Shown piece after piece: positions 36,001 to 51,000 of a stretch of DNA of 64,000 nucleotides (positions are counted from its first letter, which is position 1; every line of letters begins with the position of its first letter). The stretch is from Thalia democratica (taxonomy: Eukaryota). The DNA is taken from assembly GCA_965202585.1 (NCBI GenBank), contig OZ241833.1, positions 44,330,001-44,394,000 on the forward strand, in the 5' to 3' direction. A program made the position numbers.

Positions 36001-39000
36001 TGATATATACGGTAAATAATAAATGGTAGCTGTATAAACTGAAACAGCAATATTGAAAAGGTTTTATTTTTAATAATGTTATAAACTAAAAGTCTTATCT
36101 TCTTCAAAATTTTACATTAAAATCTAATATATTCATTTATATCACAAAAAAAGTACTTTATTTTAGCGCTGCTGTAAAACCAATTTTTTAATTAGCGAAG
36201 CATAAACTCATTTTTACTTTAACGGTATTTTTTATTCGACTATCAGTGCTTCCTTTAATCTTTTTCTTTAAGTAATATATGGACACGAATACTGTTTAAA
36301 TTATAGCAAAATAACAAGTAGTAGCAATCTAGTTTTGTAATGTTTTGGTTTTCCGTCTAACTAGATTTATTTTCGCTTGCTTTCTCTTGGACATTGGTTG
36401 ATCTTCCAAAAAACTGGTAATTTAATTATTCGTTGCACTTGGTTGTTAATACGTGTATGAAAATACCTGTTGAACTTATGTACTTGTGCTTGTTATTGTT
36501 TTGATGTTTGCTTGTTGTCGTTTCGCATCAGTGATCACGCCCGATACCGTCCAATCGCCGTCGGGATTGGCCCGTGACATCCACTCAGTACTGACCCAAC
36601 TCAACGAGGTAAAAACTCTGCTTGAGTCGCCACCCGGTGACAAAACCTCTCGTCCAATCACGGATAAGCATTTACCGAACGAGCCAATCGGAAGCGAGGA
36701 CTGTCAGGTCACAGACGCGTGCGAGGTGGTGGGCGAGGTGAAGAGGGGACTGTCGAAAGTGATGAACATCCTGAGCATGGACGATATTGAGGGCGCTGCT
36801 CAAAAAGTTTTGAACCAGGGAAACTCCCCAAACGTGATAACCAGCACCATCGAGCAGATCGAGAACGACGAGGACCTGAAGCGCTTATTGGCCGACGGCG
36901 CGGAGAGCGTCGACGAAAATCCCCGCGACCAAAACTTCAAGAGCTCCTTCTCCTCGAGCTCCTTGGAGAAAAGGTACTTTGCAGGGAGGCGAAGAAGTTC
37001 ACTCAAGCATGTCTTCAGGAGGTCCTTGTCCTTCGAAGGCGCAAAAACCGTACGCTTCAGCGGCTCCGTGGAAGTCATCAACTCCGGCGTTCCCCTCGGC
37101 TCCAGCCAATCACGGGAGCCGCTCAGACTGACGCCCGTCTCCGATTCGATGAGCAGCTTGCCGAAAGAGGTGAAAAACTTCCCCTCGCCCGGCAGAAGGT
37201 CGAGCTCGGACAGCTCGTTGGACTCGGTGACTGAGAACTGCCAGAACTTCCTGAGGGACTTTTACTGCAGGGTGGACCCGTCGAAAAGCTTCCAGGAGAG
37301 GATGGCGGCGTACCAGAAGGCGAAGGAGGAGCTGCACGTCGAGATCGAGAGGTTCAAGGTTCTCACCTCGCCCAAGCCGGTGAAGGGTGCGGGAAATTCC
37401 CCGAAACAGAGTAAAAGTTTGAGCGTTGAAAATTTGGATTTCCAAAACCAAAATATAGCTTCCCTGGTTGAAAAGGGGCCTGGATTGGTCGAGGAGTTTG
37501 ATAGACTGACTTTGACGATGCAGAGGAAGTCTACAGAAAGCTCCCCGGAACAGGATAAGTTGGCGGAAAACGGAAGTGCGCCTCTGCCGGCTAAAAGGAC
37601 GAGTCTGGAAAAACGAAGCTTATCTGTTGATGAAAAGAGGGAAATACCCGCGACTGAAATTTCACCGAAAATAATCGAGGAATCGCACACAGTGGGCGAA
37701 CTGCTTAAGACGTGGGAGCAAAAGTCCCCCATTAAGGTAGCTAAAACTAAAACTAAAAATTCCCCTAAACTTTCAGACTCGACACTTGCTGGTGGTAGAG
37801 AGCAGATTGGGACAGGAGAAAAGAGACCGGTGGCGGCCAAGCGTGTTAAATCGGTGTCTTTCGACCAACCGGAAGCTAGCAGCGTTGGTGAGGTTAGCCA
37901 ATCACAGAAGACCGAGGTAACTGTAGATAAAGCGCAATCAATTAACCAATCAAAAGACTTGCCGGCGAATAATTCGACTAATCAGAATGCTGCTAGCTCG
38001 TTCGACTCGCCGGCTTCGGTAATTGAAGCTGGCGATGTCAAACCTGCCAATGAGCTCAAAACAACAAAAGATGACGTTTTTGAAAGTAATGAGTTATCAT
38101 CTGGAATCGATCAATGTTTGGAGTCGCCGGAAAAACCAGAAACCAAAACTTTTAACAAAACTGATAATGAAAACGTTAGTTCTGAACGTAAGGAAGAAGA
38201 AAGCAGTGGTAATGAAACGAAACCTATTACTGAGCTGGTAGAAAAAAGACATAGCTCTCCCATAGATAACAAACCATATAGCAGTAACACTTCAACAAAA
38301 CTTGAAGAAAGGCCTGATATGTCTCAAAATGAACTTCGCGTTGACAAAACTACAGAGAAAGTTAACGATGAAGTCAAAGCTACGAATACCGATCAGAGTT
38401 CTGACAATAAAAATTCTAAACATAAAAGTGTGAGTGAGTCGCTTGAAGACAAAGCTACTGTTGGGACAGGCACAGACACTAAAATCGAAAACGAGAACAT
38501 AATTTCTCCTGTTGGCCAAATATTACCAGGCGAAATTTCAGGAGAAAATGTAGCGCTTGAAGGTACGGATGCCAGTAAAGTTAATGACATAAGAGCAAGT
38601 CTTGACAGTGAAAATGGTAAAAAAGAAGCTGAAAGTCCGGTCAAACAAAATATTTATAAAGACGATGTTAAAAACTTAGATCTTTCTGCAAACAAAACCG
38701 ACGCTGAAAGTGAAAGTTTTGCTGAGAATAAAAACAAGGAAAATCAGGGTGAAACTGCTCGCGATAGTTTTGTGGAACCAGCCGAAAACAAAACTGATGA
38801 AACCGTTGCTAAAGTTTGCAAAAGTCCCATTGTTGTCACACTTGATTCTGGAGAAAGTAAATCGATTATTTCAGAACAAACCAGGAAAAATGATAATGAA
38901 ATAAGACCTTTAAAAGATGACGTAGGTACAAACGACGATAAAACTATGGTTGATAATTCACCAATAAGTAAAAGAAATGAATACGGCAATCATGAAATTG

Positions 39001-48000: not shown

Positions 48001-51000
48001 GGAGCTACAACGCCGATTTCGACAACGGGGATTTCCCGAAACAGAAGGAAGAGGACGAGTACATGTCGATGGGGCGCGAGTCGAGCTACTCGAACCTGGA
48101 GGACTCGGTTGCCTCGCAACCGCTGCAGGCCATCCCTGAGAACGAGGTTCTCTCGCCTCTCTCGAAAAGCTGGGGATTCCTGTCGGACGAGGAGAGCGAC
48201 GAGCAGAAGGAGCAGCACATGCGCAGCTTCACGGAGAAATTCTCCCAGTTCGTCGCCACCGTAAACGTCGATGCTCCTTTAGATTCTCCGTCCACAGTCG
48301 TCAGTCAGAAAGACAACATGACACTTCAACTGCAGCCTAGTAGTGACGTCCAAGTTGTTGGAAAGTCGCCGATGTCGACATCTTCCATCAGTAGCTATTT
48401 GGAATTGGAGAAGGTGGCGTTCGAGTCGACCAACGAGGACTACGTGTACCTGAGCGGGCACCACGGGGTAATACCCGAGAAAGAAACGAATATTAATGAC
48501 AACGAATCGTTTGCAACCAGCGCCAGCTTCACCGACTCGATAATGTCCGAGCAGATCTTTCACACCACTTCCTTCGAGGAGCTGGACTGCAGAAGCGTGA
48601 CTAGTGACGTCACAATGATAAAGAAGAAGCCGAGGAGCAAGATTCCGGTGCTGAGGGAGCAGAGGTCGTTGAGGAGCTCGAAGTCGAGCAATGTCAGCAA
48701 GAAATCGGTTGGTAGTAGGTTGGCATCAGCAACCAAGGCGTCTAGTAGCAGATCTTTAGCATCTAAGACGAGGCAAAGAAGCTTACACGATCGAACGACG
48801 CCGAAACGAGCAGTAAAAGCTAAAAAAGACCTCAACAAGAACGTTGTGGAAAGGCCTGTTAGGACGCAAAAATCAAAACCGCCTGTAAAGCAGTCTAGCA
48901 GCGGCAAAACGAAAACAAGCGTGGAAAAAACCCCCGTTAAGAAACCGGAATCCAAGAAAACGTTGGCGAAGAAGCAGCTTCAGTCAGTCAACAAGCTGTC
49001 CTCACCTCGCCCCATGTCCCCACTTTCCCGCTCATCCTCCAACAACTCTCTCAAGTCGGCTCGCTCCAGGAGCATGGTCTCTTCGCCGGGGAACCCCGAA
49101 GACAGGTCAATCACGCTGAAGGGCCAGGCTCAAGCGGGCAAAAAGTACATAGCGTTGAAGGAAGGCGTGTACACCTACAAGATGTCTTTACAGGAGGAAA
49201 AAGAGAGGCAGGTCCAGTCTCCGATGAGCCAGGACTCGATGGGCTCGAGTCAGAATGTGTCGGCGGTTCTCGGGGGCAGTGCTAACTTGAAGAGCAAGAG
49301 CGGTTCTTTTTTAGCTGATTGCCTGGGGTCAGGCGGTGAGGTTTTGAAGGGGGATTTTCCCGTAAATAAAACCGCTGCCCCAGGCAACCACAAGTTCGTG
49401 TCGAAGATTCCGAGGTCCAACTTCAACGAGAACTCGAACGTAACGACTCGAAAAGAAATCAAAAAGGAATTATTAGCTACTTTAGAGAAAATATCTGACT
49501 CAACAAACGTATCAACTAGAAGAAAAATGAAAAAGGAATTATTAGTACCTTTGGAAAAAAAATCTGAATCAACAAAGCCAAACGTAAAACCAACAAAGAA
49601 ATCCAAAAAAGAGCCTTCTAATACCGAAAAAGTTCCGAAAAAGCGCGCAAAAATTCTGTCGGTAAAACGAAGCAAGCCACCAGCCCACAAACGGATAATC
49701 GAGATATCGGCGCCGATCAGAAAAGGCAATTATTCGGTGTTGTTATGTATGCTAGGTGGCGTAATAGCGAGCTCGTTTTGTCGCCTGTATGTTTCTCGTT
49801 GTGTTGCCTTGCAGTTGACATATTTCACATCTAGTTGTTTCCATATGAGTAATGTGAACACCGTGTATTCAGTCCCTCATTTGAACTTTTAAGTTTATTG
49901 AATGTATATTGTGTAAGACCTTGTTGTAAACTGTTGTTGCTTGTTTACAGTCGTATAACTTATGTACTTGTTTGTTTTTTTTTTTCAGCATTACTTGTTG
50001 TTTTTTATGCACTAGTAATGGGGCTTTGTTGTAAACTACTGTTGTTTGTTTTGTTTGTGTTGTGTCATTTATGTTGTACTACTATACTTTGTTGCTTTTT
50101 TATTTAATATGATATACTAACCATGATTCAAAAACTTACCAGGCAATATTACTATCAATCTTATGTATGAAAAAGCTTTTTTTGTTTGAACTGTTTAACT
50201 CGTATTGAATCCTTTTAAATGCTTTTTTTGTTTGTAACTTTTTTAGATGTATCCGGCCAAAAAACTGTTAAATGTATATCCGACCAAAACTGAGAAAGTA
50301 CCGTATTATTTTTGGTTTACTGCTATATCTTACTTTTATCCGACCAAATGTACATCAAATCACTGTCAACATTAAAATCTTAGCTTTAAAAAATCAATTA
50401 CTGTTCCAATTAGTTTTTGTTACTTTAACATTAAAAAACATTTGTCAATTTTATCCTACTAAAAAGTATCATTGTCAAAATGTACTGTCTTTTTTCATAC
50501 GAGAAGAAAAAGTTGTTGCAATATCTTTTTACCCAAACACCATTTACTTCGCAGTCATTAATTTCTTCTTATTAGCAAACAAACTAACTTTCCAATTTGA
50601 ACAATTCAGAGGGTCTCAAACCCCAACGAGACGTGAGACCCCAACTCATTCGCGTCGCCACGGGGGTGGGGATCCAGTGGCCGCGGTTGGCAAGGCAACT
50701 GGAAATCCCCGGAGAGAGAGTTAGGAGGATCCAGATGGAGATAGACTCCTCAGATTTCGTGGGTCAGTGCGTTGCCATGTTTGATGCTTGGAAGGAAGGG
50801 AAAGATGAGGGTGATGAGAAAGTTCTTGGTGAGAAATAATTACATTACAGAAATAGACGATAAAATTTAATTAGTTTTGCTTTGTTTATAAGGTATTGTA
50901 TAAATTTTAAAACACATTTATTAAAGTCTCTCTTTGTTTTCATAACTATTTTTGTTAAAAATATTTTAATTATACCAACAAGTATTTTAGTTACACTACT

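What the first reader, a model, noticed from the sequence alone, without database searches (positions are those of the whole stretch)
36532..49725. 13.2-kb giant exon between UPA and death domain
Seen: one uninterrupted about 4,400-codon exon entered in phase 1. The upstream exon (35921) and death-domain exon (50610) also join in phase 1, so skipping gives an about 1,700-aa ankyrin and inclusion about 6,100 aa. Established: vertebrate giant AnkG and AnkB exons (about 7.8 and 6.2 kb) sit at this same position and organise the axon initial segment and axons; giant exons also occur in fly and worm ankyrins. This one is about twice the vertebrate size and is likely to be mis-annotated as a stand-alone gene.
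Basis: partly seen in the sequence, partly recalled or inferred. Interest (0 to 1): 0.65.

Follow-up and report, generated by a model that had tools for sequence, protein, structure and literature searches.

The report
Giant neuronal-type exon of an ankyrin gene
This is a real 13-kb protein-coding exon inside an invertebrate ankyrin gene, of the same kind and position as the giant exons that build the axon scaffold in vertebrates and in the sea squirt Ciona, so it is a new example of a known thing rather than a new thing.

Summary
A single frame is open for 4,472 codons (36474..49892, +), against a longest of 320 codons in the other five frames. It lies in a canonical ankyrin gene, after the ZU5-ZU5-UPA exons and before the death-domain exon. 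The upstream exon (ends 35921), the acceptor (exon starts 36532) and the death-domain exon (starts 50610) are all phase 1.

The 3' end is not settled. The 165 nt behind it, up to the ORF's own stop, are conserved in frame in a relative.

The encoded 4,397 aa match no Pfam family. Their composition fits the published giant-ankyrin signature (S+E 24.7%; S,E,T,D,K,P 54.5%). The last ~540 aa form a conserved module (E 5.7e-33 to an unnamed environmental protein). It holds two conserved SxIP-type motifs in a basic Ser/Lys-rich tail, which suggests microtubule tethering through EB proteins, as in vertebrate 480-kDa ankyrin-G.

Jegla et al. 2016 already described a 13.3-kb exon at this position in Ciona intestinalis. 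Their six primers do not match this window, and the organism stays unidentified.

Verdict: new member of a known kind. Splicing itself could not be tested.

The parts
26813..34512 (+). ZU5-ZU5-UPA exons of the ankyrin gene (several exons; the outer limits are given)
   Evidence: Pfam ZU5 matches 26781-27065 (2.3e-15) and 29026-29220 (4.3e-5). UPA_2 matches 31661-31858, 33810-34100 (6.9e-13) and 34327-34512 (weak). tblastn with a fly ankyrin maps its aa 984-1402 onto these exons. The best PDB matches of the first ZU5 exon are Ankyrin-2, -3 and -1.
35864..35921 (+). 58-nt exon just before the giant exon. It starts in phase 0 and ends in phase 1, with donor TCAG|GTAGTT.
   Evidence: Read from the sequence. 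Frame from the ORF 35855..36019.
36532..49725 (+). Giant exon: 13,194 nt, 4,397 whole codons, phase 1 at both ends. The 3' end is provisional. 49725 is a GC donor; an alternative GT donor would end the exon at 49755.
   Evidence: No Pfam family. Giant-ankyrin composition signature.
36534..37733 (+). First ~400 codons of the giant exon. Their codon usage resembles the last ~600 codons of the exon (GC3 0.67-0.71, against 0.20-0.47 in most of the middle).
46785..47531 (+). Stretch that is 74% identical to the environmental protein P0007. It contains a block of about 58 aa with no change.
47454..47725 (+). 84-nt (28-aa) tandem repeat, 3.2 copies, inside a Thr/Tyr/Asp/Ile/Ser/Pro-rich repeat zone.
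47928..49541 (+). Conserved C-terminal module of the giant exon (ORF aa 3819-4356).
   Evidence: phmmer E 5.7e-33 to P0008. blastp gives 32% identity over 590 columns, with conserved blocks.
48636..48647 (+). SxIP-type motif 1 (Ser-Lys-Ile-Pro) in a basic context, net charge +7 within +/-12 residues.
   Evidence: It aligns with Ser-Arg-Ile-Pro in P0008.
49401..49412 (+). SxIP-type motif 2 (Ser-Lys-Ile-Pro), net charge +3 within +/-12 residues.
   Evidence: It aligns with Ser-Lys-Ile-Pro in P0008.
49726..49892 (+). In-frame read-through tail: 55 codons plus the stop, hydrophobic. It is either the start of the intron with a conserved element, or the coding end of an isoform that stops here.
   Evidence: P0009 is 44/55 identical here, without gaps, and ends at the same place. 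GC is 0.41, against 0.14-0.31 for the first 164 nt of 21 other introns. The read-through is 55 codons, against a median of 10 and a maximum of 42.
50610..50828 (+). First death-domain exon; it is entered in phase 1 and also ends in phase 1.
   Evidence: Pfam Death, 1.6e-6, 28.6 bits against a cutoff of 22.6. Junctions read.
36473..36487 (+). First of two exact copies of a 15-mer. It lies 45 nt upstream of the giant exon's acceptor.
49957..49971 (+). Second copy of the same 15-mer. It lies 65 nt after the ORF's stop and is followed by a T-run and CAG.

Best explanation
The stretch is a giant, alternatively included cassette exon of a canonical ankyrin gene. It is of the chordate type, lying between UPA and the death domain.

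If the exon is skipped, the 58-nt exon ending at 35921 joins the death-domain exon at 50610 in frame and gives an ordinary ankyrin. If it is included, about 4,400 residues are inserted. Most of the insert is an acidic, Ser/Glu/Lys/Asp/Thr-rich, largely unfolded spacer that evolves fast. Embedded in it are islands of conserved sequence, above all a module of about 540 aa at the C-terminal end.

That module ends in a strongly basic Ser/Lys/Arg-rich tail (net charge +57 over the last ~400 aa) with two conserved SxIP-type motifs. My reading is that the giant isoform links the membrane and spectrin-bound ankyrin core to microtubules through end-binding (EB) proteins, as shown for vertebrate 480-kDa ankyrin-G, and so organises axonal cytoskeleton.

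Shown here: the open frame, the gene context, the phase compatibility, the composition signature and the conservation of the module and of both motifs.
Inferred: actual splicing, neuronal expression, EB and microtubule binding.
For: Open frame and gene context:
- 4,472 codons are open, against at most 320 in the other frames. log10 P is about -129.
- Pfam finds ZU5, ZU5 and UPA upstream and Death downstream. ANK-repeat exons lie further upstream.
- A pyrimidine-rich acceptor lies 58 nt after the frame opens. All junctions are phase 1.

Composition and fold:
- S+E is 24.7% and S,E,T,D,K,P is 54.5%. The published signature is about 25% and more than 55% (PMC5135030, section 9).
- The exon matches no Pfam family.
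- An AlphaFold2 single-sequence model of the last 598 aa of the ORF has mean pLDDT 42, and 491 of 598 residues are below 50.

Conservation:
- The exhaustive phmmer search with the last 1,200 aa against 1.84 billion representatives gave 3 hits in all: P0007 at 76%, P0008 at 39% (E 5.7e-33) and P0009 at 71%.
- Both Ser-x-Ile-Pro motifs and several other blocks align between the window and P0008, at 32% overall identity.
- P0008 has Gly-Lys-Tyr followed by T-rich-looking sequence at the spot that matches the window's Lys-Gly-Asn-Tyr. This is compatible with a conserved phase-1 donor there (inference; I have no DNA of P0008).

Precedent:
- Ciona intestinalis has a 13,344-bp exon in a 13.4-kb ORF, in a 14-kb gap between UPA and the death domain. 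Its junctions were verified by PCR on cDNA, and ESTs from it are expressed in the nervous system (PMC5135030, section 8).
- 480-kDa ankyrin-G binds EB proteins through its SxIP motifs and recruits microtubules to the membrane (PMC6839619, passages).
Against: - No transcript evidence of any kind was available for this locus.
- The only phase-1 donor with a good context is GC, not GT.
- [ST]x[IL]P motifs are not enriched over the whole exon: 3 observed against 4.2 expected, and 1,575 of 2,000 shuffles reach 3. In the last 500 aa there are 2 against 0.7 expected, P = 0.15. The P = 0.003 for two exact Ser-Lys-Ile-Pro is post hoc.
- Vertebrate 480-kDa ankyrin-G has about ten such motifs; this exon has two in its tail.
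- The language-model look-alikes of the module all scored below the 0.9 level at which the tool says a hit is more than a lead.
- The tail behind the donor is conserved in frame. That also fits an isoform that does not splice to the death domain.
- The organism is unknown, so 'chordate type' rests on position alone.
Confidence: 0.8

Rival explanations
1. The giant ORF is, always or in some transcripts, a terminal exon. Translation runs past 49725 to the ORF's own stop at 49890-49892. The result is a giant ankyrin that lacks the death domain and the C-terminal regulatory region and ends in a 55-aa hydrophobic tail, possibly a membrane-inserting segment.
For: - P0009 is collinear with the ORF up to its last codon, without gaps. 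It is 44/55 (80%) identical behind the proposed donor and 60/84 (71%) identical before it.
- GC of 49726-49889 is 0.41. The first 164 nt of 21 other introns of the gene have 0.14-0.31, mean 0.22. GC falls to 0.29 only after the stop.
- The read-through is 55 codons, against a median of 10 and a maximum of 42 at 21 other donors.
- The proposed donor is GC.
- AlphaFold2 draws a helix over the tail at pLDDT of about 74, from a single sequence.
Against: - Sequence next to alternative exons is often conserved as a splicing element. P0009 is from a close relative, so keeping the frame over 165 nt is not decisive.
- The more distant P0008 shows no similarity to this tail. Its own tail looks like the translation of a T-rich intron that begins at the matching Gly codon.
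- The Cys/Val/Leu/Phe-rich tail is what GT-rich non-coding DNA gives when translated (base composition).
- Whether P0009 comes from RNA or from DNA is unknown.
Confidence: 0.15
2. The ORF is a separate, intron-less gene nested in an ankyrin intron, with its own promoter and start. The first ATG is codon 11 of the open frame, at about 36504. It is not part of ankyrin.
For: - An in-frame ATG lies just upstream of the acceptor.
- The ORF has its own conserved stop.
- The databases hold no protein that joins it to ankyrin domains.
Against: - The frame opens only 58 nt before a good acceptor with a pyrimidine tract.
- Both ends can be joined to the neighbouring ankyrin exons in the same phase.
- The composition is the giant-ankyrin signature.
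- The identical arrangement in Ciona was shown by PCR to be spliced to UPA and death-domain exons (PMC5135030).
Confidence: 0.04
3. The ORF is a chance open frame, a mobile element or an assembly artefact.
For: None found.
Against: - log10 P(open) is about -129, and the shuffle maximum is 162 codons.
- No transposon or viral Pfam domain matched.
- There are no N in the window.
- Three independent environmental proteins are conserved with it.
- Only local repeats were found: 84 nt x3.2, 69 nt x2 and two protein-level duplications.
Confidence: 0.01

Closest known systems
Ciona intestinalis ankyrin long exon (Jegla et al. 2016, PLoS Genet, PMC5135030)
   Same: - A single uninterrupted ORF of 13.4 kb (here 13,419 nt), in a gap of about 14 kb (here 14.7 kb) between the last pre-giant exon and the first death-domain exon.
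- It lies upstream of the death domain.
- The gene is intron-rich, with roughly one ANK repeat per exon.
- The same Ser/Glu-rich composition.
   Different: - None of the paper's six PCR primers matches the window at up to 3 mismatches, so this is not that sequence.
- No Ciona sequence was available for an alignment, because the supplementary tables are closed.
- Splicing and neural expression were shown there and not here.
Vertebrate giant ankyrin-G (480 kDa, 7.8-kb exon) and giant ankyrin-B (440 kDa, 6.2-kb exon)
   Same: - The position between UPA and the death domain.
- A large unfolded insert.
- SxIP-type motifs in a basic Ser-rich tail, as in 480-kDa ankyrin-G (PMC6839619).
   Different: - This exon is about twice as long.
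- No sequence similarity was detected. The PDB search with a 65-aa piece of the module gave nothing, and no Pfam family matched.
- Two SxIP motifs here, against about ten there.
- The GABARAP-binding extended LIR of the vertebrate proteins is not convincingly present.
Drosophila Ank2-L / Ank2-XL and C. elegans unc-44 giant exons
   Same: Giant, fast-evolving, Ser/Glu-rich exons of ankyrin that act on axonal microtubules (PMC5135030, introduction passages).
   Different: Those exons lie downstream of the death domain (PMC5135030, section 9). The XL exon is a long array of 76-aa repeats, whereas this exon is almost free of repeats.

Membership tests
Canonical ankyrin (ANK repeats - ZU5 - ZU5 - UPA - death domain) | A cassette of ANK repeats upstream of the ZU5-ZU5-UPA cassette | tested here: met
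   ORFs with 33-aa ANK-repeat units lie from about 6.5 to 22 kb. tblastn with the fly ankyrin P0005 maps its aa 81-863 onto them in order.
Canonical ankyrin (ANK repeats - ZU5 - ZU5 - UPA - death domain) | ZU5-ZU5-UPA cassette | tested here: met
   Pfam ZU5 and UPA_2 match single exons. The second ZU5 is seen through tblastn to fly aa 1122-1224. PDB matches are Ankyrin-2, -3 and -1 at E down to 5e-20.
Canonical ankyrin (ANK repeats - ZU5 - ZU5 - UPA - death domain) | Death domain after UPA | tested here: met
   Pfam Death, 1.6e-6, 28.6 bits (cutoff 22.6), on exon 50612-50827.
Giant-ankyrin long exon (as defined by Jegla et al. 2016) | One unbroken ORF of thousands of bases inside the ankyrin locus, after UPA | tested here: met
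   36474..49892, 13,419 nt.
Giant-ankyrin long exon (as defined by Jegla et al. 2016) | Composition bias: Ser+Glu about 25%; Ser, Glu, Thr, Asp, Lys, Pro together more than 55% | tested here: met
   24.7% and 54.5%. The second value is at the border of the published figure.
Giant-ankyrin long exon (as defined by Jegla et al. 2016) | Exon contiguous in mRNA with the UPA and death-domain exons | not testable with these tools
   Only phase compatibility and splice-site sequences could be shown. No transcript data were available.
Giant-ankyrin long exon (as defined by Jegla et al. 2016) | Expression in the nervous system | not testable with these tools
   No expression data.
EB-binding SxIP microtubule plus-end tracking signal | Core [ST]-x-[IL]-P in a basic, Ser/Pro-rich stretch poor in acidic residues (this definition is recalled, not taken from a call) | tested here: met
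   Two Ser-Lys-Ile-Pro motifs at exon aa 4035 and 4290, with net charge +7 and +3 within +/-12 residues. The last ~400 aa have net charge +57.
EB-binding SxIP microtubule plus-end tracking signal | Motif conserved in relatives | tested here: met
   Both motifs align with Ser-Arg-Ile-Pro and Ser-Lys-Ile-Pro of P0008, at 32% overall identity. This rests on one relative only.
EB-binding SxIP microtubule plus-end tracking signal | More motifs than chance gives | tested here: not met
   3 observed against 4.2 expected over the exon. In the last 500 aa, 2 against 0.7, P = 0.15.
EB-binding SxIP microtubule plus-end tracking signal | Binding to the EB homology domain; plus-end tracking | not testable with these tools
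   No EB protein of this organism was at hand, and no complex job was sent.
Giant-ankyrin extended LIR (LIR core plus C-helix, binds GABARAP) | Core aromatic-x-x-hydrophobic, with an acidic residue at +7 | tested here: met
   Trp-Gly-Phe-Leu at ORF aa 3900, with Glu at +7. The rule is taken from PMC8727931 passages.
Giant-ankyrin extended LIR (LIR core plus C-helix, binds GABARAP) | Hydrophobic residue at +11 (and +8) on the C-helix, and conservation of the core | tested here: not met
   +8 is Ser and +11 is Gln. In P0008 the Trp is shifted by two places, so the core spacing is lost. The PDB search with this piece found no ankyrin peptide. Not filed as a member.

The most novel reading that the evidence does not exclude
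The giant exon carries its own conserved ending. Some transcripts would not splice at 49725 but run on to the stop at 49890. That would give a giant ankyrin without a death domain whose last 55 residues hold a conserved hydrophobic helix of about 22 aa, which could insert into a membrane. Such a tail-anchored giant ankyrin would be a form not described for any ankyrin. Separately, the conserved SxIP-bearing basic module would place EB-mediated microtubule tethering by giant ankyrins outside the vertebrates.
Probability: 0.15. Interest if true: 0.6.

Novelty: new member of a known kind. Interest (0 to 1): 0.3.

Why it matters
Giant ankyrins organise the axon initial segment and axonal microtubules. 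Jegla et al. 2016 argued that they are ancestral to bilaterians, but found almost no sequence that is conserved between lineages.

This locus adds one more giant exon at the chordate-type position. It also yields a conserved module of about 540 aa, with two SxIP-type motifs, shared with at least one distant relative. That gives a concrete and testable link between an invertebrate giant ankyrin and the EB/microtubule mechanism known from vertebrate 480-kDa ankyrin-G.

For annotation, the exon is absent from the protein sets searched. Gene models of this genome probably give only the short isoform.

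Tried and rejected
Protein searches
- Word-based search with the whole exon: no hit among 1,975 scored candidates of 2,418-7,695 aa, and none among 8,000 scored candidates of 30-2,417 aa.
- The 'longer' search with the first ZU5 exon gave 5 hits among 19 candidates. Four are named ankyrin-3 of tephritid flies and one (P0004) is unnamed; all are at 48% identity. Only proteins of 145-2,000 aa were searched, so the organism was not identified.
- Identity of the ZU5 exon to human ankyrins in the PDB is about the same as to flies, so it gives no hint of the clade.

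Other look-ups
- The six Ciona PCR primers from PMC5135030 gave 0 matches at up to 3 mismatches.
- Rfam over the whole window gave 0 matches.
- Protein atlas, first 420 aa: best score 0.78. Last 543 aa: best 0.84. Named rows were MTUS2-like 0.82, AMER2 0.80 and NCKAP5 0.80. All are below the tool's 0.9 level, so they are leads only. That these three are EB-binding proteins is my recollection.

Ideas rejected
- GABARAP-binding LIR at Trp-Gly-Phe-Leu: rejected as a member.
- A single large repeat array as in fly Ank2-XL: rejected.

Slips
- One search failed because a search term was too short. I read the sections instead.
- The script printed nothing and was replaced.
- The frames guessed by the script were partly wrong and were recomputed. 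The GC values stand.

Left out
- No complex-prediction job was sent.
Exons were searched one at a time.

Unchecked
- The supplementary tables S2 and S4 of PMC5135030 are closed. They hold the Ciona giant isoform and the exon sizes and positions.

Full report
**Observation**

The window is very AT-rich, about 25% GC outside exons, and contains no N. I do not take it for human.

One frame on the + strand is open stop-to-stop from 36474 to 49892, 4,472 codons. The other five frames of the same stretch hold 77 to 561 stops, and none is open for more than 320 codons. With the local base composition a stop is expected every 15-16 codons, so log10 of the chance of such an open frame is about -129. 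In 200 shuffles the longest open run was 162 codons.

**Gene context**

Searched exon by exon, Pfam finds:
- ZU5 at 26781-27065 and 29026-29220;
- UPA_2 at 31661-31858, 33810-34100 and, weakly, 34327-34512;
- a Death domain at 50612-50827;
- nothing in the 4,397-aa giant exon.

ORFs with 33-aa ANK-repeat units fill 6.5-22 kb, mostly one repeat per exon. A fly ankyrin found maps onto all these exons in order by tblastn. The first ZU5 exon's best solved relatives are human Ankyrin-2, -3 and -1. This is a canonical ankyrin gene.

**Junctions**

- The exon before the giant one is 35864-35921, with donor TCAG|GTAGTT, and ends in phase 1.
- The giant frame opens only 58 nt before a pyrimidine-rich acceptor (…ttgtcgtttcgcatcag|TG). 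The exon therefore starts at 36532 in phase 1.
- The death-domain exon starts at 50610 in phase 1.

The 3' end is the weak point. At 49725 the sequence is AAG|GCAATT, a GC donor. The 20 donors of this gene that went into my matrix, and also the one at 50828, are all GT. On the matrix built from those 20 donors its flanks score 4.9, well inside the training range of 0.7-7.7. The nearest phase-1 GT sites score -2.4 (49755) and 2.8 (49335).

**Nature of the encoded sequence**

Ser is 14.6%, Glu 10.1%, Lys 9.4%, Asp 8.6%, Thr 7.5% and Asn 7.0%. [quoted passage not shown] Jegla et al. 2016 give about 25% and more than 55% as the one conserved property of ankyrin long exons (PMC5135030, section 9).

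The exon is nearly free of repeats. It has an 84-nt unit x3.2 at 47454-47725, a 69-nt unit x2 at 49437-49576, and two protein-level duplications of about 110-150 aa in the middle.

Codon third-position GC is 0.67-0.71 in the first 400 codons and 0.52-0.74 in the last 600. It is 0.20-0.47 through most of the middle, with one block at 0.56. The last ~400 residues change from acidic to strongly basic, with net charge +57.

An AlphaFold2 single-sequence model of the last 598 aa of the ORF is mostly unfolded: mean pLDDT is 42, and 491 of 598 residues are below 50. It has a few helices.

**Relatives**

The word-based search found nothing of 30-7,695 aa. The exhaustive phmmer search with the last 1,200 aa against 1.84 billion representatives gave three hits in all. 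All three are singleton clusters without names, from environmental or unnamed sources, and I did not trace them.

- **P0007** (251 aa) is 74% identical to ORF aa 3438-3686. It includes a block of about 58 residues without a single change.
- **P0008** (973 aa, E 5.7e-33) aligns over ORF aa 3819-4356 at 32% identity. It shares clear blocks with the window: an acidic block followed by a predicted helix, a Ser/Pro/Arg block, a 'KYIAL.EGVYTYKMSL.EEK' block, and both Ser-x-Ile-Pro motifs.
- **P0009** (139 aa) is 75% identical, without gaps, to the very end of the ORF.

The exon is therefore under purifying selection in islands, above all in a C-terminal module of about 540 aa.

**Mechanism**

Two Ser-Lys-Ile-Pro motifs (nt 48636 and 49401) lie in the basic tail, and both are conserved in P0008. 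In vertebrate 480-kDa ankyrin-G, SxIP motifs in the giant exon bind EB proteins and recruit microtubules to the membrane (PMC6839619, passages). I read the module as an EB and microtubule tether at the far end of a long unfolded spacer.

Caveats:
- Over the whole exon the motif is not enriched: 3 observed against 4.2 expected.
- The local excess is not significant, P = 0.15.
- The atlas look-alikes are below the tool's reliability level.
- A GABARAP-binding extended LIR was considered at Trp-Gly-Phe-Leu. It fails the hydrophobic positions and is not conserved in P0008.

**The tail behind the donor**

The 165 nt from 49726 to the stop differ from the start of every other intron of the gene:
- GC is 0.41, against 0.14-0.31 for the others.
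- The frame stays open for 55 codons, against a median of 10 and a maximum of 42.
- P0009 is 80% identical here, more than in the 84 aa before the donor (71%), and ends at the same place.

Either this is a conserved splicing element next to an alternative exon, or some transcripts end here and encode a hydrophobic C-terminus. At the matching spot it has Gly-Lys-Tyr followed by unrelated, intron-like sequence, which fits a phase-1 G|GTAAAT donor. I have no DNA for it, so this is inference.

**Comparison with what is known**

Jegla et al. 2016 (sections 8 and 9 read) found a 13.4-kb ORF in Ciona intestinalis, holding a PCR-verified 13,344-bp exon, in a 14-kb gap between the UPA-side exons and the death-domain exons. 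It is expressed in the larval nervous system. They report long exons in 23 of 36 bilaterian ankyrins, with a mean of 8,103 +/- 4,850 bp. The position upstream of the death domain occurs only in tunicates and vertebrates.

The present locus mirrors the Ciona one closely in layout and size. However, none of that paper's six primers matches it, so it is another organism or a diverged lineage, and it stays unidentified. That paper does not mention SxIP or EB1 (0 occurrences).

**Verdict**

This is a genuine giant ankyrin exon and a new member of a known kind. Its size is not exceptional. What is new is modest: the conserved SxIP-bearing module and the conserved in-frame tail.

Noticed in passing
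window 36473-36487 and 49957-49971: An exact 15-mer occurs only twice in the window. One copy lies 45 nt before the giant exon's acceptor. The other lies 65 nt after the ORF's stop and is followed by a T-run and CAG, like a second acceptor. Beyond the 15-mer the flanks share only GT-rich composition. It could be a shared branch-point or regulatory element, or a relic of a duplication.
   Followed up: partly
window 6716-6918, 29496-29765 and 1264-1488: Tandem duplications of 77, 103 and 88 nt (about 2.5 copies each). The first two straddle exon-intron borders of the ankyrin gene: the end of the first ANK exon with its donor, and the start of a ZU5 exon. They create extra copies of splice sites (the ORF translations show the repeated peptide pieces).
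   Followed up: no
window 50250-50463: A 12-nt unit (TATCCGACCAAA) occurs four times, at 83-100% identity to the reference copy, in the intron just before the death-domain exon.
   Followed up: no
window 49893-50100 and 36380-36531: Both sides of the giant exon are unusually T/G-rich, with repeated TTGTTG motifs (T 0.53 and 0.45). A 26-nt unit is repeated at 49921 and 50026. These could be binding sites for a splicing regulator.
   Followed up: no
window 61237-61803 (+): ORFs with a Cys/His pattern like a RING finger, probably the neighbouring gene downstream of ankyrin. Not searched.
   Followed up: no
window 26814-27059: The first ZU5 exon carries an 8-residue insertion relative to both the human and the fly ankyrins.
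   Followed up: no
window 46785-47531: Within a fast-evolving stretch, a block of about 58 aa is identical between the window and P0007. It probably marks an unrecognised binding motif.
   Followed up: no
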